Below are positions 503 to 63,420 of a stretch of DNA of 63,420 nt, in pieces. Position 1 is the first letter of the stretch. Each line of letters begins with the position of its first letter. The position numbers were made by a program, and so were the translations under genes. Source of the stretch: a bacterium (GTDB taxonomy: Bacteria > Patescibacteriota > Minisyncoccia > Phycocordibacterales > UBA6899); assembly GCA_021851895.1 (NCBI GenBank), contig JAJZQJ010000003.1, forward strand, positions 1 to 63,420. The letters are read 5' to 3'. The notes under the pieces are model-generated. The model was given only the letters and a program-made list of their open reading frames with translations. It searched no databases and had not been told where the DNA came from.

Positions 503-573
503 CTACGGGACTTGGAATCGAACCAAGATTAAAGGCTTCAAAGGCCTCTGTCCTACCTTTAGACGATCCCGTA
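503..573 (-). tRNA. tRNA-Gln (anticodon UUG)
   Basis: Manual cloverleaf on the reverse complement: acceptor TACGGGA/TCCCGTA, D-stem GTCT/GGAC, anticodon stem GAGGC/GCCTT, loop CTTTGAA, T-arm CTTGG-TTCGATT-CCAAG, discriminator G. No encoded CCA. Confidence 0.85.
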
Positions 574-746
574 AATTATTATGTGTTCAAATGAAATACG
601 AAGGCTCAAAAACACGCAGTCATAGGACAGAGGTTTACCTCTTTCCTACCCGTGAGCGACTGAACGTAGGGAAGGCGTGAGTTGATGAGGGTTGCGGTGG
701 CGACTCCTTATCGGGCAAGAATGCCTGGTGCCCGTAGGGCCATTCT

Positions 747-767
747 TACCTTTAGACGATCCCGTAA
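747..767 (-). repeat. exact 21-nt duplicate of the tRNA-Gln 5' end (acceptor 5' strand plus D-arm)
   Basis: tacctttagacgatcccgtaa at 554-574 recurs at 747-767. No T-arm or cloverleaf can be completed for the second copy. Confidence 0.8.
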
Positions 768-42547: not shown

Positions 42548-42620
42548 GGGCCCATAGCTCAGTTGGTAGAGCAGCGCATTTGCAATGCGAAGGTCGCAGG
42601 TTCAAATCCTGTTGGGTCCA
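42548..42620 (+). tRNA. tRNA-Ala (anticodon UGC)
   Basis: Acceptor GGGCCCA/TGGGTCC with the G3:U70 Ala identity pair, D-arm GCTC-AGTTGGTA-GAGC, anticodon loop TTTGCAA, T-arm GCAGG-TTCAAAT-CCTGT, discriminator A. No encoded CCA. Confidence 0.9.
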
Positions 42621-42665
42621 CAGAGGCAGAAAAAAGAGCGTAAGCTCTTTTTTCTTTTGCCTCTG
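42621..42665. terminator. A/T-flanked hairpin abutting the tRNA-Ala 3' end (bidirectional terminator-like)
   Basis: cagaggcagaaaaaagagc-gtaa-gctcttttttcttttgcctctg. Homologous hairpins at 61797-61840 and 63213-63257. Confidence 0.6.
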
Positions 42666-42832
42666 TGAGACCCAACAGGATTTGAATGGCGGAGGCCGCG
42701 AAGCCGGCCGCTGAGGCTCCCGGCCGAAGCGGCCGTGGCCGAGCCGGGGTCGCGAGCACTTAGCGCTTTTGGATGCAAAGCATCCAAAACGCTTTGTGAC
42801 TCGTGACCAAATCCTGTTGGGTCCTCCATTCC
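42666..42832 (-). ncRNA. candidate structured RNA unit A1: GC-rich core framed by inverted and direct copies of the tRNA-Ala 3' end
   Basis: 42669-42686 is the reverse complement of tRNA positions 42601-42618. 42807-42828 is a direct copy plus TCCA. Core 42687-42806 is homologous to 61530-61595, 61700-61775 and 63111-63190. Strand assignment is inferred. Confidence 0.45.
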
Positions 42833-43040
42833 ACTACAAGTATTTGTATTTTGATTTATGAGGTGACAGAGGGGCAAATCCTGTTGGGTCTCTCTGCTTA
42901 GGAGCGAAGCACCTATTTGCATTTTTGACTCGTGACCAAATCCTGTTGGGTCCTCCATTCTTCTATGAGTATTTGTATTTTTATTTAGTACGCTGAAGAA
43001 TACAAACTCACGTTCGGTTAATACATGCTCAAAACGCAAT
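42833..43040 (-). repeat. degenerate second unit (A2) and leader module of the tRNA-Ala-linked element
   Basis: Further tRNA-3'-end copies at 42875-42890 and 42936-42957. About 70-nt direct repeat 42791-42862 / 42919-42992. 42983-43011 resembles the leader at 61426-61454. Confidence 0.4.
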
Positions 43041-43064
43041 AAAAACACCTCTCGGTGTTTTTAT
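43041..43064 (-). terminator. intrinsic terminator of the small Cys-rich gene
   Basis: aaaaacacc-tctc-ggtgttttt. Confidence 0.65.
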
Positions 43065-59653: not shown

Positions 59654-61351
59654 ATGATCAATCAATCGAACACACCAATTGAAAGCGGTGACTCGCCGCA
59701 GCCTAAACGACGAATCATCCGCCGTATCGTCAGAAGAGTTCCAAAACAGCATCCAAGCGCGTCGCCGATGTCTGCTGCTGATGCCGTAGTTGCGCAAGCC
59801 GAGCAAAAGAGGCGCACTCATGAGGAATCAGATGATACGTTACAAGCAGTGTCTGTGGTAAGGCAGCCTTCGAGTGGTAGGATTTTGGAGCCCAGCAAAG
59901 AAGCAGAAGCCTTTCTTTCTGGAGATGCCACTGAGCCTACAAAACAACAGCCGGTCATTGAATATCCTGCAATGCCTACGATCGAACCGAAAAAAATGGT
60001 TCTCGAGCAATTTGCCGCGCGTAAGGATAAGAATCGATCTGACAATCAACCGCCTGTAGGTGAGGATTCCTCGGAATCGGGAAGAAGCCCAATAGAGAGT
60101 ATCTGGCCTTATATCGCTGCAGCGAAACAGCATGCGGGGGAGGCACACGAGGATATACAGGGTGATTTTACTGATACTTCGAAGAAGACTCGTCCGACTG
60201 TATCAGAATTCGAGGAAGAGCATAATTATTTCTCTTGGATACCTTGGGTGCTTGGACCGATCATTTTATTGGTTCTCATCATTGGTGGAATTTCATATTT
60301 TTCAGGAGCAAATATCGTGATCACTCCAAAGACGGAGCAGGTGAGCTTGCTCGCTGATATCGAGGCTGTAAAAAATGGAGATCCTGCCAAGGAGTTCCCA
60401 CTCTCAGTGCTTACGATCGAAGATAAGGTTTCTGTAGACGTTCCTGCAACTGAGTCAAAGACATCTGTCGCGACCGCATCAGGAAAGGTCACACTTTTCA
60501 ATAAGCAGACTGTTGCTCAGAAGCTCATAAAGACAACACGTCTTGAGGCTGTCGATGGAAAGATCTATCGTATTCATGAGAATGTTACGATCCCAGCTGC
60601 AAAGTCAGGAAAGCCAGGAACCTTGGACGTTATGGTGTATGCTGAGTCTTCGGGTCCGGATTATAATCGTAAAGGGCCAGCAGAATTCACACTTCCAGGG
60701 TTTAAGGGTAAGCCCCAATTCACTTTGGTTGGCGCAAATCTTACCGGAGAGATCTCTGGTGGTTCAGCGGGGGTGAAGAAGACGGTTCCAAATGATGTGC
60801 TTGATGGGGTATCTCAGAAGCTTAAGATAGAACTTGAAAACAAGCTTCGCGCACGAGCTACCCAAGAGATTCTACCTGCGCAGGTAAGCTACGAAGGACT
60901 TTATCAGTTCTCATACAAGGATGTAACGCTTGAGGCATCTGATGCTCCTGAAAAGGCGCGCGCGGTACTTACAGGCACGCTCTCTGCGCCAGTGTTCGAT
61001 CGGGTATTGCTTACGAAGACTCTTGCTCGCTCAGCACTCAAGAACTATAACGACGAGGACATCACGCTTTCTCATATCGAGATGCTTCCAGTGACTTATC
61101 AGGAGGATCCGACGAAGGTTGATTTGCTCAATGCTGATAAGGTGGTCTTCCATGTTGAAGGGCAGGGTTCATTTATGTGGAAGGTGGATACTGATACATT
61201 CACAAGAGCGTTGCTCAACGTGTCAAAGGATGACGTGAAGAAAGTCATTATGCGATTCCCAAGTATAGATCACGTCGACGCGACACTTCGTCCGTTCTGG
61301 AAACAGTATTTCCCAGGCAGCGTGAAGGATTTCGTTGTAACAGTGAAATAG
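59654..61351 (+). CDS. large single-pass membrane protein, unknown function
   Basis: 565 aa. Disordered Pro/Ser/Glu-rich N-terminus, a TM helix near residue 210, beta-rich ectodomain. Confidence 0.5.
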   Translation: MINQSNTPIESGDSPQPKRRIIRRIVRRVPKQHPSASPMSAADAVVAQAEQKRRTHEESDDTLQAVSVVRQPSSGRILEPSKEAEAFLSGDATEPTKQQPVIEYPAMPTIEPKKMVLEQFAARKDKNRSDNQPPVGEDSSESGRSPIESIWPYIAAAKQHAGEAHEDIQGDFTDTSKKTRPTVSEFEEEHNYFSWIPWVLGPIILLVLIIGGISYFSGANIVITPKTEQVSLLADIEAVKNGDPAKEFPLSVLTIEDKVSVDVPATESKTSVATASGKVTLFNKQTVAQKLIKTTRLEAVDGKIYRIHENVTIPAAKSGKPGTLDVMVYAESSGPDYNRKGPAEFTLPGFKGKPQFTLVGANLTGEISGGSAGVKKTVPNDVLDGVSQKLKIELENKLRARATQEILPAQVSYEGLYQFSYKDVTLEASDAPEKARAVLTGTLSAPVFDRVLLTKTLARSALKNYNDEDITLSHIEMLPVTYQEDPTKVDLLNADKVVFHVEGQGSFMWKVDTDTFTRALLNVSKDDVKKVIMRFPSIDHVDATLRPFWKQYFPGSVKDFVVTVK

Positions 61352-61361
61352 GATATTCTAT

Positions 61362-61388
61362 TAAAAAAGACACAATGTGTCTTTTTTA
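61362..61388 (+). terminator. intrinsic terminator
   Basis: aaaaaagacac-aat-gtgtctttttt. Confidence 0.7.
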
Positions 61389-61399
61389 ATTTAGATGCA

Positions 61400-61796
61400 G
61401 GGCAAACGTAAAACCGTTTCGGTTTGAGTTTGAATGACGCTTCGCGTACTGAATCGGATTCAAGGACTCGTCCCTCTGTCACCTCCATATATTTCATCGC
61501 TTCGCTCGAAATCTATGGGGTGCAGGTGGGGCCAGGGCTCGGCCACGGCCGCTTCGGACGGGTCCTCAGCGGCCGGCTCCGCGGCCTCCGCCCTACGAGT
61601 CCTTGAGGGGGTGGCAACAAAAACAAAAAAGACGCTTTCGCGTCAAGCGAGGACTCGACACGGCTCACAAAGCATTTCATTGCGCTGCGCTTATGAAATG
61701 CTAAGTGGCCGTCGTCACGGCTCGGCGACCCTGCGCTGCGCGAAGACGCGCGAGCGAGGGTGCCCGCCTCCGCCTTTCGAGTCCTTGAGGGGGTGG
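61400..61796 (+). ncRNA. candidate structured RNA: conserved 34-nt leader plus two tandem units (B1, B2) framed by tRNA-Lys 3'-end-derived arms
   Basis: Leader 61400-61433 is near-identical to 62923-62956. Antisense arms at 61461-61470 and 61651-61658 pair with sense arms at 61596-61605 and 61777-61784. GC-rich cores are homologous to 42687-42760 and 63131-63190. Strand is inferred. Confidence 0.45.
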
Positions 61797-61840
61797 CAAC
61801 AAAAACAAAAAAAACGCTTTCGCGTCTTTTTTGTTTGTTG
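61797..61840. terminator. A/T-flanked hairpin abutting the tRNA-Lys 3' end (bidirectional terminator-like)
   Basis: caacaaaaacaaaaaaaacgc-tttc-gcgtcttttttgtttgttg. A truncated copy lies at 61613-61644. Confidence 0.6.
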
Positions 61841-61913
61841 TCCCCCCTCAAGGACTCGAACCTTGGACCGTCTCGTTAAGAGCGAGCTGCTCTACCAACT
61901 GAGCTAAGGAGGG
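61841..61913 (-). tRNA. tRNA-Lys (anticodon CUU)
   Basis: Reverse complement folds as acceptor CCCTCCT/AGGGGGG, D-arm GCTC-AGTTGGTA-GAGC, anticodon loop CTCTTAA, T-arm CAAGG-TTCGAGT-CCTTG, discriminator A. Has an unusual C1:G72 pair and a G27.A43 mismatch. Confidence 0.8.
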
Positions 61914-61995
61914 ATGGGGATATAGTACCAAATTTGCAAAATATTGCAAGCGTTTTGCATGAAAAAACACAACGCATGGTTGTGTTTGGGGGTGG

Positions 61996-62361
61996 TCATT
62001 CAGCTTCAGGAAATTCTTGAATTTTCCAAAAGTCATCACGCCGGAGCGAAACTGTCTTCATGCGATCGGGCTGGACGTGGCCATGCCTGTACTCGCCGAA
62101 CTTGTCTGTGCAGACGTTGTCGCCGGTCGTGCGGTTGATCCGATGCATTTTCTTGTTGGTGCAGGTACACTCGCCGATGTGGGGTTCCAGTATGTTCACG
62201 GTGAAGACCTCTTGAGGCTCATCATCTCCTTTGGTCTCCTCCTTCAGAATACCCGTAATCACTCCGACACGCCGCTTCGTGGTATGGTTCCTTTTTGCGG
62301 CCTTTCTGCTGAGAACCACGGTCATGCCTTTGGTGATCACTTCGGGGATGATGGGGGCCAT
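61996..62361 (-). CDS. small Cys/His-rich (zinc-ribbon-like) protein, paralog of 62481-62831
   Basis: AGGAGG SD 6 nt upstream of ATG. ECTCTNKKMHRINRTTGDNVCTDKFGEYRHGH aligns with the neighbour's CSRCNGPVRVNRTTGEAVCKNSDCNHRHGF. Confidence 0.6.
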   Translation of the reverse strand: MAPIIPEVITKGMTVVLSRKAAKRNHTTKRRVGVITGILKEETKGDDEPQEVFTVNILEPHIGECTCTNKKMHRINRTTGDNVCTDKFGEYRHGHVQPDRMKTVSLRRDDFWKIQEFPEAE

Positions 62362-62480
62362 CGATTTCCTCCTGATTTACTTTGTACAGAGCTCGGGGAA
62401 CAATAACATATAGTATAAAAAAGTCAAGTAATGAAAAAGGCTCGCGCATAACGCGAGCCGTGTGACTTGATGTGCTGGGC

Positions 62481-62831
62481 CTAGTACTCGTCCTGCATGG
62501 GGCTGAAGTCATCCTTCGCGAGATCGCTGAGGACGACGCCCTGGGGATGGGTGATGAACCCATGCCGGTGATTGCAGTCCGAGTTCTTGCAGACCGCCTC
62601 GCCGGTCGTCCGATTGACGCGGACGGGGCCGTTGCAGCGACTGCAGTTCTCCGCCGTACGGGGAAGCAGGAGCTTGGCCGTGTAGGTGACCTTGATCATG
62701 CCGCGCTCATCGCCGGTGCGATGGACGTCAGTGATCACGGCGGCCCTGAGGCCGGAGACCTTCTTCTTCTCGAGGGCCGACTTGCAGACGAGGATCTGGG
62801 AGCCCTTGGGGATTTCGAGAACTGTGGACAT
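62481..62831 (-). CDS. small four-Cys zinc-ribbon-like protein, strongly GC-rich coding sequence
   Basis: Start MSTVLEIPKG (alternative upstream ATG 62903). Own terminator ggctcgcg-ttat-cgcgagcc at ~62443-62462. Paralogous to 61996-62361. Confidence 0.6.
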   Translation of the reverse strand: MSTVLEIPKGSQILVCKSALEKKKVSGLRAAVITDVHRTGDERGMIKVTYTAKLLLPRTAENCSRCNGPVRVNRTTGEAVCKNSDCNHRHGFITHPQGVVLSDLAKDDFSPMQDEY

Positions 62832-62922
62832 GTGTCCCTTTCTTTGAAAGTGGAACGGGTTATCCGTCCGAAGATATAATAGCATATTTTTGGGGAAAGT
62901 CAATAGATACTATTTAATGCTT

Positions 62923-63060
62923 GGGCAAACGTAAAACCGTTCCGGTTTGAGTTTGATGGAGCGCAAAGCGCGCTGGTACAGATACTTCTAATACACAGGG
63001 AGCCGAAAAACCCTTTAGGTTTTTGACTCATTGAGTGCTCTGCACGCAGAATAGGATTCT
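62923..63060 (+). ncRNA. leader of the third tRNA-type element locus (conserved 34-nt 5' module plus variable hairpins)
   Basis: gggcaaacgtaaaaccgttccggtttgagtttga preceded by the -10-like TATTTA (62911-62916). A TATAAT also lies at 62875-62880. Confidence 0.4.
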
Positions 63061-63420
63061 GGGACTCGGTCACAAGTCACTAAGTCTTTAGCCAGCAGAG
63101 CTGTCAAAAGCCTAAGTGCTCGTGACCACGGCTCGGCTACAGCCGCTTCGGCTGGGAAGCCTTCAGCGGCTGGCTTCGCAGCCTCCGCCTTTCGAGTCCC
63201 GCCCCGGAGTCACAGTGGCATAAGAAAAAAGAGCTTGCGCTCTTTTTTCTGCCACTGTGCCGGAGAAACGAATCAGACGGGACTCGGTCACAAGTCACTA
63301 AGTCTTTAGCCAGCAGAGCTGTCAAAAGCCTAAGTGCTCGTGACCACGGCTCGGCTACAGCCGCTTCGGCTGGGAAGCCTTCAGCGGCTGGCTTCGCAGC
63401 CTCCGCCTTTCGAGTCCCGC
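63061..63420 (+). repeat. perfect 218-bp tandem repeat (1.65 copies visible, runs off the window) of the GC-rich core, tRNA-like 3' arm and hairpin
   Basis: 63061-63202 is identical to 63279-63420. Each unit has arms GGGACTCG / CGAGTCCC, a core homologous to loci A and B, and hairpin 63213-63257. Confidence 0.85.

What the first reader, a model, noticed from the sequence alone, without database searches (positions are those of the whole stretch)
61400..61913. Second copy of the element at tRNA-Lys: conserved core, but arms re-written to match tRNA-Lys
This locus lies convergent to tRNA-Lys(CUU) (61841-61913, minus strand) and mirrors the tRNA-Ala locus.

Components:
- A hairpin at 61797-61840 abuts the tRNA 3' end.
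- It is preceded by TTCGAGTCCTTGAGGGGG (61776-61793), an inverted copy of the tRNA-Lys T-loop/T-stem/acceptor.
- Further upstream is the GC-rich core ending in the conserved GCCTCCGCC.
- A complementary arm GGACTCGA (61651-61658) can pair with 61777-61784.

A second unit upstream repeats the pattern. Its arms are CAAGGACTCG (61461-61470) and CGAGTCCTTG (61596-61605), and its terminal hairpin (61613-61644) is truncated.

The framing arms share no sequence with the tRNA-Ala locus arms, yet in both loci they equal the adjacent tRNA's 3' end. Core blocks are conserved across loci: CTAAGTG, CGGCTCGGC, GCCGCTTCGG, GCCTCCGCC. So the arms act as a locus-specific address around a constant core. This is hard to explain by chance or by simple duplication.
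Basis: seen in the sequence. Interest (0 to 1): 0.85.

Follow-up and report, generated by a model that had tools for sequence, protein, structure and literature searches.

The report
tRNA-end-matching structured cassettes in Patescibacteria
Next to many tRNA genes of the tiny "candidate phyla radiation" bacteria sits a previously undescribed ~200-base folded element whose conserved core is framed by two arms copied from the end of whichever tRNA gene it faces, which suggests a new kind of tRNA-addressed RNA or mobile cassette.

Summary
The window holds five units with one conserved core: two at tRNA-Lys, one at tRNA-Ala, and two in tandem at the window end. A core-only pattern carrying no tRNA information found 12 loci in 185,579 species genomes. 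Eleven are named Patescibacteria lineages and one is an unnamed MAG. In all 12 the core faces a convergent tRNA gene 58-75 nt away, and the tRNAs have eight different identities. A covariance model found further units at other tRNAs. All 33 units with a downstream tRNA converge on it. In 19 of 23 units, at least one arm matches its own tRNA better than any other tRNA. The core helix shows strong compensatory change. There is no Rfam, phage or plasmid match, and no linked protein gene. Cores, 3' arms and terminators are swapped between tRNA loci within genomes. Units also form tandem arrays and truncated stacks, and they break assemblies. My best reading, at moderate confidence, is a non-autonomous cassette installed at tRNA gene ends, with arms made from the target. 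A host riboregulator that mimics or pairs with the tRNA end is the main rival. The transcribed strand and the machinery remain unresolved.

The parts
61400..61458 (+). Conserved leader box upstream of the tRNA-Lys array. It has a small hairpin (AAAACCGTTTCGGTTT) followed by a weak promoter-like stretch that ends 1-2 nt before the 5' arm.
   Evidence: Repeat family D3. Alignment with the Unit C upstream region and with orthologous loci L162 and L161. No sigma-70 hit under the strict scan.
61460..61471 (+). LysA 5' arm (X), TCAAGGACTCGT. It is the reverse complement of the T-stem and T-loop part of the tRNA-Lys 3' end and pairs with 61595-61606.
   Evidence: I9 is 12/12 complementary; D6 matches the tRNA at 61848-61863. 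Fold.
61472..61592 (+). LysA core. The 5' domain is the variant "type 2" form (CCCTCTGTCACCTC...). The 3' part is the GC-rich domain GGCTCGGC...GCCGCTTCGG...GCCTCCGCC.
   Evidence: Covariance model hit 61455-61610, 54.9 bits, E = 2e-14..
61593..61644 (+). LysA 3' arm (CTACGAGTCCTTGAGGGGG), a sense copy of the tRNA-Lys 3' end with a mutated T-loop. It is followed by a truncated terminator hairpin with no T-run.
   Evidence: D2 is a 95% copy of 61766-61826; I5 is a 16-nt perfect inverted repeat with the tRNA.
61650..61659 (+). LysB 5' arm (AGGACTCGAC). It pairs with 61777-61785.
   Evidence: Sequence. Fold.
61660..61774 (+). LysB core. It comprises helix P2 (CAC-AAAG..hairpin..CUAA-GUG), the P3 hairpin, and the single-stranded GCCUCCGCC.
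   Evidence: Covariance model hit 61641-61792, 93.9 bits. Alignments A1 and A2. Covariation.
61775..61793 (+). LysB 3' arm (X'), TTTCGAGTCCTTGAGGGGG. It is a sense copy of the T-loop, T-stem and acceptor 3' strand of tRNA-Lys.
   Evidence: I4: 18/18 inverted repeat with 61843-61860.
61797..61840 (.). Bidirectional terminator hairpin shared by LysB and tRNA-Lys, with an A-run, a stem and a T-run on both strands. The loop is the GNRA tetraloop GAAA on the tRNA strand.
   Evidence: I2. One search lists the homologous LysA copy as a minus-strand terminator. Sequence.
61841..61913 (-). tRNA-Lys(CUU) gene. CCA is not encoded.
63023..63052 (+). Sigma-70-like promoter match (TTGACT-18-CAGAAT), placed so that transcription would start at the Unit C 5' arm.
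   Evidence: It is the only unit-strand promoter match; 20 other loci show no general signal.
63053..63278 (+). Unit C. It has a 5' arm GGGACTCGG (63061-63069), a core, a 3' arm TTTCGAGTCCCGCCCCGGAGTC (63190-63211) and a terminator hairpin (63211-63259). The arm matches the 3' end of a tRNA that is not in the window.
   Evidence: Covariance model hit, 105.6 bits. Fold. (I7, I10).
63279..63420 (+). Unit D, a 100% tandem copy of Unit C that is cut by the window end. Public contigs also end here.
   Evidence: D1.. (L160 ends at the same place).
42548..42665 (+). tRNA-Ala(UGC) gene (42548-42621) and its terminator hairpin, which has a GUAA loop on the tRNA strand.
42661..42835 (-). The tRNA-Ala unit. 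It has a 5' arm GGAGGACCCAACAGGATTTG (about 42807-42830), a core, and a 3' arm ATTCAAATCCTGTTGGGTCTC (42661-42687). Helix P1 is 16 bp perfect.
   Evidence: Covariance model hit 42670-42823, 112.5 bits. Fold z = -8.3.
42836..42960 (-). A stack of truncated 5' fragments of further units, each starting with a copy of the tRNA-Ala-derived arm. Direct copies of CAAATCCTGTTGGGTC lie at 42873-42892 and 42927-42948. Two copies end in ...GGGTCCTCCA, a CCA that the gene does not encode.
   Evidence: Sequence..

Best explanation
**What it is.** A family of ~190-220-bp cassettes specific to Patescibacteria (CPR) sits immediately downstream of tRNA genes, in convergent orientation.

**Layout of each cassette:**
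- 5' arm X, the exact reverse complement of the tRNA gene's last ~19 nt (T-loop C56 to C74). In one sub-lineage it instead copies the last few tRNA bases plus the trailer.
- A conserved folded core. It contains helix P2 with a bulged U and an A.A mismatch, hairpin P3 closed by GGC/GCC, and a single-stranded UCCGCC.
- 3' arm X', a sense copy of the same tRNA segment, usually with one small imperfection.
- A bidirectional terminator shared with the tRNA.

**How I think it works.** The cassette is a non-autonomous insertion or recombination module, and its arms are made from the target at the DNA level.
- X is a direct duplicate of the tRNA end. The original tRNA end and its flank were pushed distally when the module (core + X' + terminator) was installed right after C74.
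- X' extends the terminator palindrome into the tRNA end.
- X and X' can pair to close the core. In single-stranded form this would rebuild a duplex copy of the target site.
- An unidentified trans-acting machinery most probably recognises the conserved core.

**Shown:** the architecture, the strict tRNA association, arm tracking, covariation, module swapping between tRNA loci, tandem and truncated arrays, and the absence of a linked protein gene.

**Inferred:** that installation duplicates the target, that base-pairing of the arms provides the address, and whether the intermediate is RNA (SINE- or R2-like target-primed copying) or folded ssDNA (CTX-phage-like).
For: **Association and arm tracking**
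- All 12 genome loci found with a tRNA-blind pattern converge on tRNAs of eight identities. 33 of 33 model hits with a downstream tRNA are convergent.
- Arms track the own tRNA in 19 of 23 units.

**The 5' arm is a DNA copy of the tRNA end**
- X is a perfect 14/14 copy in 10 units, even where X' is foreign or decayed (L003, L013, L010).
- Its inner boundary is always at the T-loop TCG|, and its outer boundary is at C74.
- X complements the tRNA 3' strand rather than copying the tRNA 5' strand. G3.U70 of tRNA-Ala becomes A-U, which points to a DNA-level copy rather than tRNA mimicry.

**Module movement between loci**
- L004 and L010 lie on one contig and share an identical ~200-nt stretch of core + X' + terminator. 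One is at tRNA-Gly(GCC) and the other at tRNA-Gly(UCC). In L010, X' is GCC-type while both X copies are UCC-type.
- L156 is the closest relative (Ddl 93% identical). Its tRNA-Ala is followed by the window's tRNA-Lys-type terminator, with the junction exactly at the tRNA 3' end.
- L154 and L155 encode identical Ddl proteins but diverge exactly at the arm/core junction. In L152 the tRNA-plus-unit module is inverted.
- Units within one genome resemble each other more than units at orthologous loci do.

**Array structure and assembly behaviour**
- Tandem arrays, and truncated 5' fragments stacked distally.
- Public contigs end inside units.

**Original tRNA end pushed distally**
- The distal copies are followed by CC or CCA in 7 of 14 cases. 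Unit-bearing tRNA genes encode CCA in only 1 of 22. This fits the original gene end having been pushed outward.

**Non-autonomous**
- No recurrent neighbouring protein family.
- No integrase, transposase, reverse transcriptase, TnpB or IscB domain in 63 window ORFs.

**A real, constrained fold**
- The core helix covaries: 76 cells changed on both sides against 25 +/- 4 in shuffles (0 of 500), and 8-35 in slid controls.
Against: - No excision product, empty site or mobilising enzyme was found.
- L010 could also arise by gene conversion between two resident paralogous units.
- Some units have a local X' but a foreign X (L019, L004, L008). A simple target-duplication model does not predict this, although recombination between dispersed units would explain it.
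- The core has been conserved with compensatory change across a whole phylum, in highly streamlined genomes. That fits a host function at least as well as a selfish element.
- How X' comes to match a new tRNA is not explained by any observed step.
- The strand that matters is unresolved. G.U-type cells number 18 and A.C-type cells 34 in model pairs. The tRNA-sense strand folds better in 17 of 24 units. Terminators and one promoter-like site fit the unit strand. There is no general promoter signal.
Confidence: 0.45

Rival explanations
1. The units are host small-RNA genes, one or more per tRNA gene, that act on the neighbouring tRNA or on its enzymes. There are two versions. In the first, the unit-strand RNA carries a 5' segment antisense to the tRNA's last ~19 nt. 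The internal 3' arm masks this segment until it is needed. In the second, the tRNA-sense read-through RNA ends in an exact tRNA 3' end, sometimes with CCA. Helix P1 then forms an acceptor/T-stem-like minihelix that RNase P, RNase Z and the CCA-adding enzyme could process. Under either version, selection keeps the arms matched to the tRNA, and copies spread by ordinary recombination.
For: - Strong covariation and near-invariant motifs across the phylum.
- The units persist in genomes that are otherwise streamlined.
- Orthologous loci keep a unit across genomes (L005/L008 at tRNA-Tyr, L011/L029 at tRNA-Val).
- Units are terminator-bounded, and Unit C has a promoter-like site placed to start at its 5' arm. 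A conserved leader is shared by several arrays.
- The 5' arm of L003 is complementary to 22 nt of the mature tRNA including CCA, which the gene does not encode.
- The tRNA-sense strand folds better in 17-20 of 24 units.
Against: - Tandem arrays, truncated fragment stacks, and the swapping of core and terminator between unrelated tRNA loci are not expected of fixed regulator genes.
- The arms are often partial. At the Lys locus they cover only 9-12 nt.
- In some lineages the arms match the trailer rather than the tRNA.
- The 5' arm does not reproduce tRNA identity elements: G3.U70 is lost.
- 20 loci show no general promoter.
- A.C cells are as frequent as G.U cells, which is unusual for an RNA read from one strand.
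Confidence: 0.3
2. The units are scars of classical integrase-mediated integration at the T-loop of tRNA genes, the T-loop sublocation described for P4-like integrases. The direct repeats are attL and attR, and the core is a leftover attP arm region of a prophage or island that has since been deleted.
For: - Direct repeats run from the T-loop to the tRNA 3' end, as in T-loop-type att sites (established knowledge; repeats seen).
- Tandem accretion occurs at tRNA genes.
- The distal copy sometimes retains CCA.
Against: - The "element" is only ~190 bp in every one of more than 35 cases, and no integrase lies nearby.
- The core is a covarying structure conserved across the phylum, not decaying DNA.
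- The inverted copy X' is not a feature of att sites.
- In L010 the tRNA keeps its own acceptor strand while X' and the terminator are foreign. A T-loop crossover cannot produce this.
- Trailer-type arms do not involve the T-loop at all.
- Phage, plasmid and viral collections contain no copy.
Confidence: 0.07
3. The units have no function of their own. They are over-grown bidirectional terminators, or REP-like palindromic repeats. Template-switch ("quasi-palindrome correction") extends them into the tRNA end, and recombination spreads them.
For: - The 3' arm plus terminator plus tRNA end form one long, nearly perfect palindrome (I2, I4).
- The palindrome always copies whatever lies just before the terminator, whether tRNA end or trailer.
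- The mismatch pattern is strand-symmetric.
Against: - A ~130-nt non-palindromic core with near-invariant motifs and compensatory changes is conserved from Saccharibacteria to Paceibacterota.
- Terminators of protein-coding genes and of unit-less tRNAs in the same loci lack these features.
- The association is exclusive to tRNA genes.
Confidence: 0.07
4. The region encodes a protein. The ORF at 61434-61907 (157 aa) is called as a gene in a public assembly.
For: An ORF exists and is annotated in L160 as a 157-aa product without Pfam hits.
Against: - The ORF runs through two units, a terminator and, antisense, into the tRNA.
- Units differ by indels that are not multiples of three, and they covary as helices.
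- Homologous units sit on either strand relative to any ORF.
Confidence: 0.01

Closest known systems
Genomic islands and prophages integrated at the T-loop of tRNA genes (tyrosine integrases, attL/attR)
   Same: The target is the 3' part of a tRNA gene. Direct repeats run from the T-loop to the tRNA end. Elements pile up in tandem at one tRNA.
   Different: The unit is ~200 bp rather than kilobases, and no integrase is present. It carries an inverted copy of the target and a conserved covarying core. Its arms differ for every tRNA, whereas a given integrase and attP serve one tRNA.
CTX-phage-type (IMEX) integration of folded single-stranded DNA by host XerCD
   Same: An inverted pair of target-like sequences can fold into a hairpin that mimics the duplex target site. 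After integration, one end of the element carries target, short loop and inverted copy, which is the layout seen here (tRNA end, terminator, inverted arm). No recombinase is encoded in cis. Tandem arrays form.
   Different: The target here is a variable tRNA end, not dif. The element would be only ~200 nt. No ssDNA form or Xer involvement was shown.
SINEs and site-specific non-LTR retroelements (R2 in rDNA) using target-primed reverse transcription
   Same: Short and non-autonomous, with a structured RNA and a target-site duplication of about 15-20 bp. The unit is linked to tRNA sequence, may be co-transcribed with a host RNA gene, and forms truncated copies.
   Different: No reverse transcriptase partner was identified and there is no A-tail. 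This is a bacterial host. The duplication coincides exactly with tRNA positions 56-74. An additional inverted target copy is present.
Guide RNAs of IS200/605-family elements (IscB/TnpB omega RNA, Rfam HEARO) and IS110 bridge RNA
   Same: A constant structured scaffold is joined to a segment identical to the DNA flanking the insertion site, so the "address" automatically tracks the locus.
   Different: There is no Rfam match and no adjacent nuclease or recombinase gene. There are two mutually complementary arms rather than one free guide or two internal loops.
tRNA-like ends of RNAs (tmRNA, YrlA/Y RNA-like, viral tRNA-like structures, mascRNA-type processing signals)
   Same: A larger RNA carries a copy of a T-arm/acceptor 3' strand that can form an acceptor-like helix with the RNA's other end.
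   Different: The copy is specific to the neighbouring tRNA. The T-loop bases are paired, not looped. The 5' strand is a perfect complement, so identity elements such as G3.U70 are lost. ARAGORN and Rfam find no tmRNA or tRNA-like family.
REP/BIME/REPIN palindromic intergenic repeats
   Same: Abundant, intergenic, hairpin-forming and terminator-like repeats that are mobilised in trans and break assemblies.
   Different: REPs are ~35-bp palindromes without a large conserved asymmetric core. They are not tied to tRNA genes and do not copy their neighbour's sequence.

Membership tests
Any Rfam RNA family (including tRNA-like, tmRNA, HEARO/omega RNA, ribozymes, riboswitches) | A match to a curated covariance model at or near the gathering score | tested here: not met
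   Gathering-threshold scan of the whole window found only the three tRNAs. E-value scans of 61350-63420 and 420-860 gave only chance microRNA-type hits below threshold.
tRNA-integrating genomic island or prophage (tyrosine integrase) | Direct repeats of the tRNA 3' segment flanking the element | tested here: met
   The 5' arm duplicates C56-C74 of the adjacent tRNA, with 14/14 identity in 10 units.
tRNA-integrating genomic island or prophage (tyrosine integrase) | An integrase gene within the element, or a kilobase-sized element | tested here: not met
   The repeats lie ~190 bp apart. There is no recurrent neighbouring protein and no integrase domain in 63 window ORFs.
tRNA-integrating genomic island or prophage (tyrosine integrase) | After a T-loop crossover, the element supplies the tRNA's new 3' end | tested here: not met
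   In L010 the tRNA-Gly(UCC) keeps its own acceptor 3' strand, although the adjacent 3' arm and terminator are those of the tRNA-Gly(GCC) locus.
MITE / DDE-transposon derivative | Constant terminal inverted repeats and a short (2-14 bp) target-site duplication | tested here: not met
   The inverted arms differ at every tRNA, and the duplicated segment is 15-25 bp.
IscB/TnpB omega RNA or IS110 bridge RNA | Encoded next to its nuclease or recombinase gene, or within an IS end | tested here: not met
   No such gene lies near any of ~25 loci or in the window. Non-autonomous copies served in trans cannot be excluded.
SINE-like / target-primed retroelement | Target-site duplication of variable sequence and ~7-20 bp length flanking a non-coding structured unit | tested here: inconclusive
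   A duplication-like direct repeat of 15-25 bp is present, but gene conversion between resident units could give the same pattern.
SINE-like / target-primed retroelement | A partner reverse transcriptase and an RNA intermediate | not testable with these tools
The 63-kb window holds no RT domain.
Folded-ssDNA integrating element (CTX-phage/IMEX-like) | Inverted target-like sequences able to form a duplex mimic of the target site | tested here: met
   X and X' pair: 16 bp perfect at tRNA-Ala, 12 bp in LysA. The layout of target, loop and inverted copy lies next to the tRNA (I4).
Folded-ssDNA integrating element (CTX-phage/IMEX-like) | A single-stranded circular form, and use of a host recombinase | not testable with these tools
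   This needs read-level or experimental data.
tRNA-like aminoacylatable minihelix (tmRNA-type mimicry) | An acceptor helix reproducing the tRNA's identity pairs, plus a T-loop | tested here: not met
   The 5' arm is the perfect complement of the 3' strand. G3.U70 of tRNA-Ala becomes A3-U70, and G2.U71 of tRNA-Glu becomes A-U. The T-loop bases are paired in P1.
Structured RNA gene (generic) | Helices supported by compensatory substitutions | tested here: met
   86% of cells are paired, against 33-45% when partners are slid. 76 cells changed on both sides against 25 in shuffles (0 of 500). Pairs 23-77 and 24-76 show three pair types and no unpaired cell.
Structured RNA gene (generic) | A defined transcribed strand, with a promoter, a terminator and G.U outnumbering A.C | tested here: inconclusive
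   A terminator lies 3' of each unit, and Unit C has a promoter-like site. However, 20 loci show no general promoter signal. A.C cells number 34 and G.U cells 18. The opposite strand folds better in 17 of 24 units.

The most novel reading that the evidence does not exclude
The unit is a self-addressing element that encodes no protein in cis. A conserved folded core, in RNA or single-stranded DNA form, carries two arms that base-pair with, or rebuild, the end of a tRNA gene. The arms direct its installation exactly at position 74 of that gene and duplicate positions 56-74. This would be a bacterial counterpart of SINE/R2-type or CTX-phage-type integration, with an address that is reprogrammed for each tRNA and that is used throughout the Patescibacteria. 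A second, equally novel reading is a phylum-wide set of per-tRNA riboregulators, each carrying the sequence of its own tRNA's end.
Probability: 0.3. Interest if true: 0.9.

Novelty: categorically new. Interest (0 to 1): 0.8.

Why it matters
- CPR/Patescibacteria make up a large share of bacterial diversity, yet almost nothing is known about their non-coding repertoire.
- A structured element that accompanies many of their tRNA genes and carries the tRNA's own end sequence in both orientations would be one of two things. It could be a new class of programmable, sequence-addressed insertion element, of interest for genome engineering in the way bridge RNAs and omega RNAs are. Or it could be a new layer of tRNA-specific RNA biology in organisms with minimal genomes.
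- There are practical consequences. The units break metagenome assemblies at tRNA loci. They also generate spurious ORF calls in public annotations and mediate rearrangements.
- The covariance model built here gives a direct handle for annotating the units.

Tried and rejected
- **Rfam.** Gathering-score and E-value scans of the units and of the tRNA-Gln locus found nothing.
- **Loose pattern in viral contigs.** It gave 120 hits, all chance GC-rich matches lacking the flanking motifs. The specific pattern gave 0 viral hits.
- **GenBank phage and PLSDB plasmid collections.** No match.
- **Linked protein genes.** All-against-all comparison of ORFs within 4 kb of units in about 25 loci showed no recurrent family. 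The two small paralogous ORFs between the Lys locus and Unit C have no homologues at other loci and no Pfam hit. A Pfam scan of 63 window ORFs found no integrase, transposase or reverse transcriptase.
- **Extending the window to find Unit D's tRNA.** All public contigs end inside the units.
- **Empty or filled sites in close relatives.** Contigs break at the tRNA or unit, so only junction polymorphisms could be seen.
- **Deciding the transcribed strand.** Free energies, z-scores, G.U versus A.C counts and promoter scans gave conflicting answers.
- **Classical T-loop integrase scar.** Rejected on L010 and on the conserved covarying core.
- **Aminoacylatable tRNA mimic.** Rejected because the identity pairs are lost.
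- **Protein-coding reading of ORF 61434-61907.** Rejected.
- **Literature.** Six full-text searches found no description of such elements.
Full report
**1. The observation**

- tRNA-Lys(CUU) lies at 61841-61913 on the minus strand.
- On the plus strand, TTCGAGTCCTTGAGGGGG (61776-61793) is a perfect 18-nt inverted copy of the tRNA's own 3' end at 61843-61860 (I4).
- A hairpin with an A-run, a stem and a T-run (61797-61840) lies between them.
- GGACTCGA (61651-61658) can pair with the start of that copy.
- The upstream unit has 12-nt perfectly complementary arms, at 61460-61471 and 61595-61606 (I9).
- Its terminal hairpin is a truncated 95% copy of the downstream one (D2).

The 9-mer GCCTCCGCC occurs exactly five times in 63 kb, and always in a unit. 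The four distinct units align with 67% mean column identity. Each folds far better than shuffled sequence, with z from -4.3 to -8.3. All share one architecture:

- a closing helix P1 made by the two arms;
- a helix P2 carrying a variable hairpin;
- a GC-rich domain P3;
- a single-stranded GCCUCCGCC(U)UU;
- the 3' arm and a terminator.

**2. Where the window comes from, and how far the element reaches**

The window is cellular DNA. It encodes LeuRS, UvrA, UvrB, UvrC, Ddl, YceG, sigma factors and two-component systems.

I scanned 185,579 species genomes with a pattern made only of core blocks (CTAAGTG..GGCTCGGC..GCCTCCGCC), which carries no tRNA information. It returned 12 loci. Eleven are named Patescibacteria, Paceibacterota, Parcubacteria or Saccharibacteria, and one is an unnamed MAG.

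In all 12 the core points at a convergent tRNA gene 58-75 nt beyond GCCTCCGCC, or about 220 nt in one tandem case. The tRNAs are Phe, Leu x2, Gly x3, Tyr x2, Lys, Glu, Val and Ala.

A metagenome scan gave 13 more real loci with the same layout. It also gave five chance hits in GC-rich coding DNA, which lack every flanking feature.

Viral contigs, GenBank phages and PLSDB plasmids contain no copy. No Rfam family matches. Six full-text literature searches found no description.

**3. The core is a constrained fold**

In an alignment of 24 units (A2), helix P2 reads CAC-UAAG...CUAA-GUG. It has an invariant A.A mismatch and a bulged U. A 3-bp stem follows that takes the forms AGC/GCU, AAG/CUU, GAG/CUC, GAA/UUC, GCG/CGC, CGG/CCG, GGC/GCC, GAC/GUC and AAA/UUU.

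The formal count gave these results:

- 86% of cells are paired, against 33-45% when partners are slid;
- 76 cells changed on both sides, against 25 +/- 4 in 500 shuffles (none reached the observed value) and 8-35 in slid controls;
- two pairs show three pair types and no unpaired cell.

A covariance model built from A2 finds only the five units in the window. In the fetched loci it finds units that the pattern had not selected: at tRNA-Leu and tRNA-Arg in L025, two at tRNA-Glu in L011, and at tRNA-Ala in L152 and L154. These show that the "invariant" blocks can drift (GGCTCGCC, GGCTTCACC, CTGCGCC).

Inspection by eye shows still more divergent units behind other tRNAs (L151 tRNA-Ala(GGC), L027 tRNA-Val and tRNA-Arg, L012 tRNA-Val). 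The family is therefore larger than the model sees. In some loci most tRNA genes carry a unit, while others have a plain terminator (tRNA-Gln in the window; several).

**4. The arms really track the tRNA**

Of 36 model hits, 25 sit directly against a convergent tRNA and 8 reach one through a tandem array. The rest are cut by contig ends, apart from L014, which has no detectable tRNA. Every downstream tRNA found is convergent: 33 of 33.

I scored each arm against the last 14 nt of 23 tRNAs, excluding the shared T-loop. The own tRNA ranks first for the 3' arm in 14 units, for the 5' arm in 14, and for at least one arm in 19 of 23.

The geometry is precise.

- The 5' arm (X) is the reverse complement of tRNA positions C56 to C74.
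- Its inner end is always at the T-loop ...TCG|, and its outer end at the base after the discriminator.
- X complements the 3' strand rather than copying the tRNA's 5' acceptor strand. G3.U70 of tRNA-Ala and G2.U71 of tRNA-Glu become Watson-Crick pairs. This argues against aminoacylation mimicry and for a copy made from the DNA or RNA of the tRNA end.
- The 3' arm (X') is the sense copy. It usually carries one small indel near the acceptor end. In a recurrent variant its T-loop reads TTCTCG, or it is split by a conserved hairpin (GCAAAGCAGTTTGC).
- In one sub-lineage both arms copy the last bases of the tRNA plus its trailer (TCACAAATCGC), that is, whatever lies just before the terminator.

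**5. The loci are dynamic**

- *Module copied within a contig.* L004 and L010 lie about 6 kb apart on one contig. They share an identical ~200-nt block of core + X' + terminator, behind tRNA-Gly(GCC) and tRNA-Gly(UCC) respectively. In L010, X' is GCC-type while both copies of X are UCC-type.
- *Terminator swapped in the nearest relative.* In the closest relative of the window (Ddl 93% identical), tRNA-Ala is followed by the terminator that follows tRNA-Lys in the window. The junction is exactly at the tRNA 3' end.
- *Strain-level breakpoints.* Two strains with identical Ddl proteins diverge exactly at the arm/core junction. In another relative the tRNA-plus-unit module is inverted.
- *Within-genome homogeneity.* Units within one genome resemble each other more than units at orthologous tRNAs of different genomes do (L001~L011; the P3 domains of L006~L008; window Ala~LysA~Unit C).
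- *Arrays and fragments.* Units form tandem arrays (window Lys; Units C and D at 100% identity; L026 x3; L029 x2). At tRNA-Ala, truncated 5' fragments stack distally, each beginning with the arm.
- *Assembly breaks.* Public contigs of relatives, and of this genome, end inside the units.
- *Encoded CCA.* tRNA genes bearing units encode CCA in 1 of 22 cases and unit-less ones in 4 of 20. The distal copy of the tRNA end is followed by CC or CCA in 7 of 14 cases. This fits the distal copy being the original gene end pushed outward.
- *No protein partner nearby.* No protein family recurs near the units. The window has no integrase, transposase, reverse transcriptase or RNA-guided nuclease domain.

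**6. What could not be settled**

The functional strand is open.

For the unit strand:
- each unit is followed by its own terminator;
- Unit C has a sigma-70-like site placed to start at its 5' arm;
- a leader box is conserved at three arrays;
- some loops are C(UUCG)G.

Against the unit strand:
- 20 loci show no general promoter signal;
- the unit strand is C-rich;
- the tRNA-sense strand folds better in 20 of 24 units by energy and 17 of 24 by z-score;
- in model pairs, A.C cells (34) outnumber G.U cells (18), with site-specific patterns.

This symmetry would also fit a structure that matters in single-stranded DNA, or on both strands.

**7. Interpretation**

The simplest description covering all the shown facts is a non-autonomous cassette (core + X' + terminator) installed immediately after C74 of a tRNA gene. 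Installation duplicates positions 56-74, and the duplicate is the 5' arm. The 3' arm prolongs the terminator palindrome into the tRNA end. Dispersed copies then recombine and homogenise.

Two known mechanisms give this layout:

- target-primed copying of an RNA (SINE/R2-like, with a ~20-bp duplication);
- integration of a folded single strand whose paired arms mimic the target duplex (CTX-phage-like, which leaves target, loop and inverted copy at one end).

Neither was demonstrated. I put 0.45 on the cassette reading.

The main rival, at 0.3, is a host RNA family acting on the neighbouring tRNA or on tRNA-processing enzymes. Phylum-wide conservation in streamlined genomes supports it.

A classical T-loop integrase scar gets 0.07. 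It is contradicted by the constant 190-bp size, the covarying core, the inverted arm, L010 and the trailer-type arms. A function-less terminator or REP-like repeat also gets 0.07; the large conserved asymmetric core and the exclusive tRNA association contradict it. The annotated 157-aa ORF is spurious.

**8. Novelty and verdict**

No family I could test fits: Rfam as a whole, integrative islands, MITEs, omega or bridge RNAs, tRNA-like ends, and REPs. In each case at least one defining feature is not met. The closest functional analogies are listed with their differences.

Its kind appears new, and interest is high (0.8). The caveat is that function and mechanism are inferred from sequence alone.

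Noticed in passing
window 549-573 and 745-767 (minus-strand tRNA-Gln locus, 502-573): The first ~25 nt of tRNA-Gln (TTACGGGATCGTCTAAAGGTA) are repeated 172 nt upstream of the gene, with a GC-richer stretch (600-745) between. There is no Rfam hit and the fold is only weak (z = -2.1). This tRNA has a plain terminator and no unit. It could be a 5'-side counterpart of the phenomenon, or a rearrangement scar.
   Followed up: partly
window 61996-62361 (-) and 62484-62831 (-): Two paralogous small ORFs (~120 aa, 29% identical, with a CxxC...C zinc-ribbon-like motif) lie between the tRNA-Lys array and Unit C. Each has a strong sigma-70-like promoter (TTGACT-16-TATTGT/TATTAT). They have no Pfam hit and no homologues at other unit loci.
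   Followed up: partly
window 61400-61433, 62923-62956, 62997-63030; L162 6755-6830; L161 6755-6793: A conserved ~60-nt leader box (GGGMRNMCG-AAAACCGTTYCGGTTT-GAGTYT...CGCTTCGCG...) precedes the first unit of the Lys and Unit C arrays and the orthologous position in two relatives. It may be a promoter or leader for the array, or a terminator for the upstream gene.
   Followed up: partly
window 42808-42835 and 42927-42952: Two distal copies of the tRNA-Ala 3' end read ...GGGTCCTCCA, with a CCA that the tRNA gene does not encode (the gene reads ...GGGTCCACAG). L003 and L025 show the same extra CCA. Either the ancestral gene ends encoded CCA, or the copies derive from mature tRNA.
   Followed up: partly
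L001, L002, L007, L011, L015, L026 (3' arms): A conserved small hairpin, AAAGCAAAGCAGTTTGCTTT, is inserted between the T-stem copy and the acceptor copy of the 3' arm, or between tandem units. It occurs in several unrelated genomes and may be a second portable module.
   Followed up: no
L160 11781-12254 (= window 61434-61907); window 42602-43048 (-): Public annotation calls a 157-aa protein across the two Lys units and into the antisense of the tRNA. A similar 148-aa ORF spans the Ala unit. These are almost certainly spurious gene calls caused by the GC-rich units.
   Followed up: yes
L156, L157, L158, L159, L160, L161, L162, L163 (contig ends): Short-read contigs of this genome and its relatives terminate inside or right next to the units or tRNAs. 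This indicates that the units behave as dispersed repeats and fragment CPR assemblies at tRNA loci.
   Followed up: yes
L155 2760-2800: Between two convergent tRNAs there is a short non-canonical filler containing CUGAUGAG...GAAC, reminiscent of a hammerhead core. It sits flanked by arm-like copies of both tRNA ends. It is probably chance, and the model does not recognise it.
   Followed up: no
window 1-63420: GC skew is positive in nearly every 2-kb bin across the whole window (the cumulative skew rises almost monotonically), so the window appears to lie on one replichore. Units occur on both strands relative to this skew, so their orientation follows the tRNA, not replication.
   Followed up: partly
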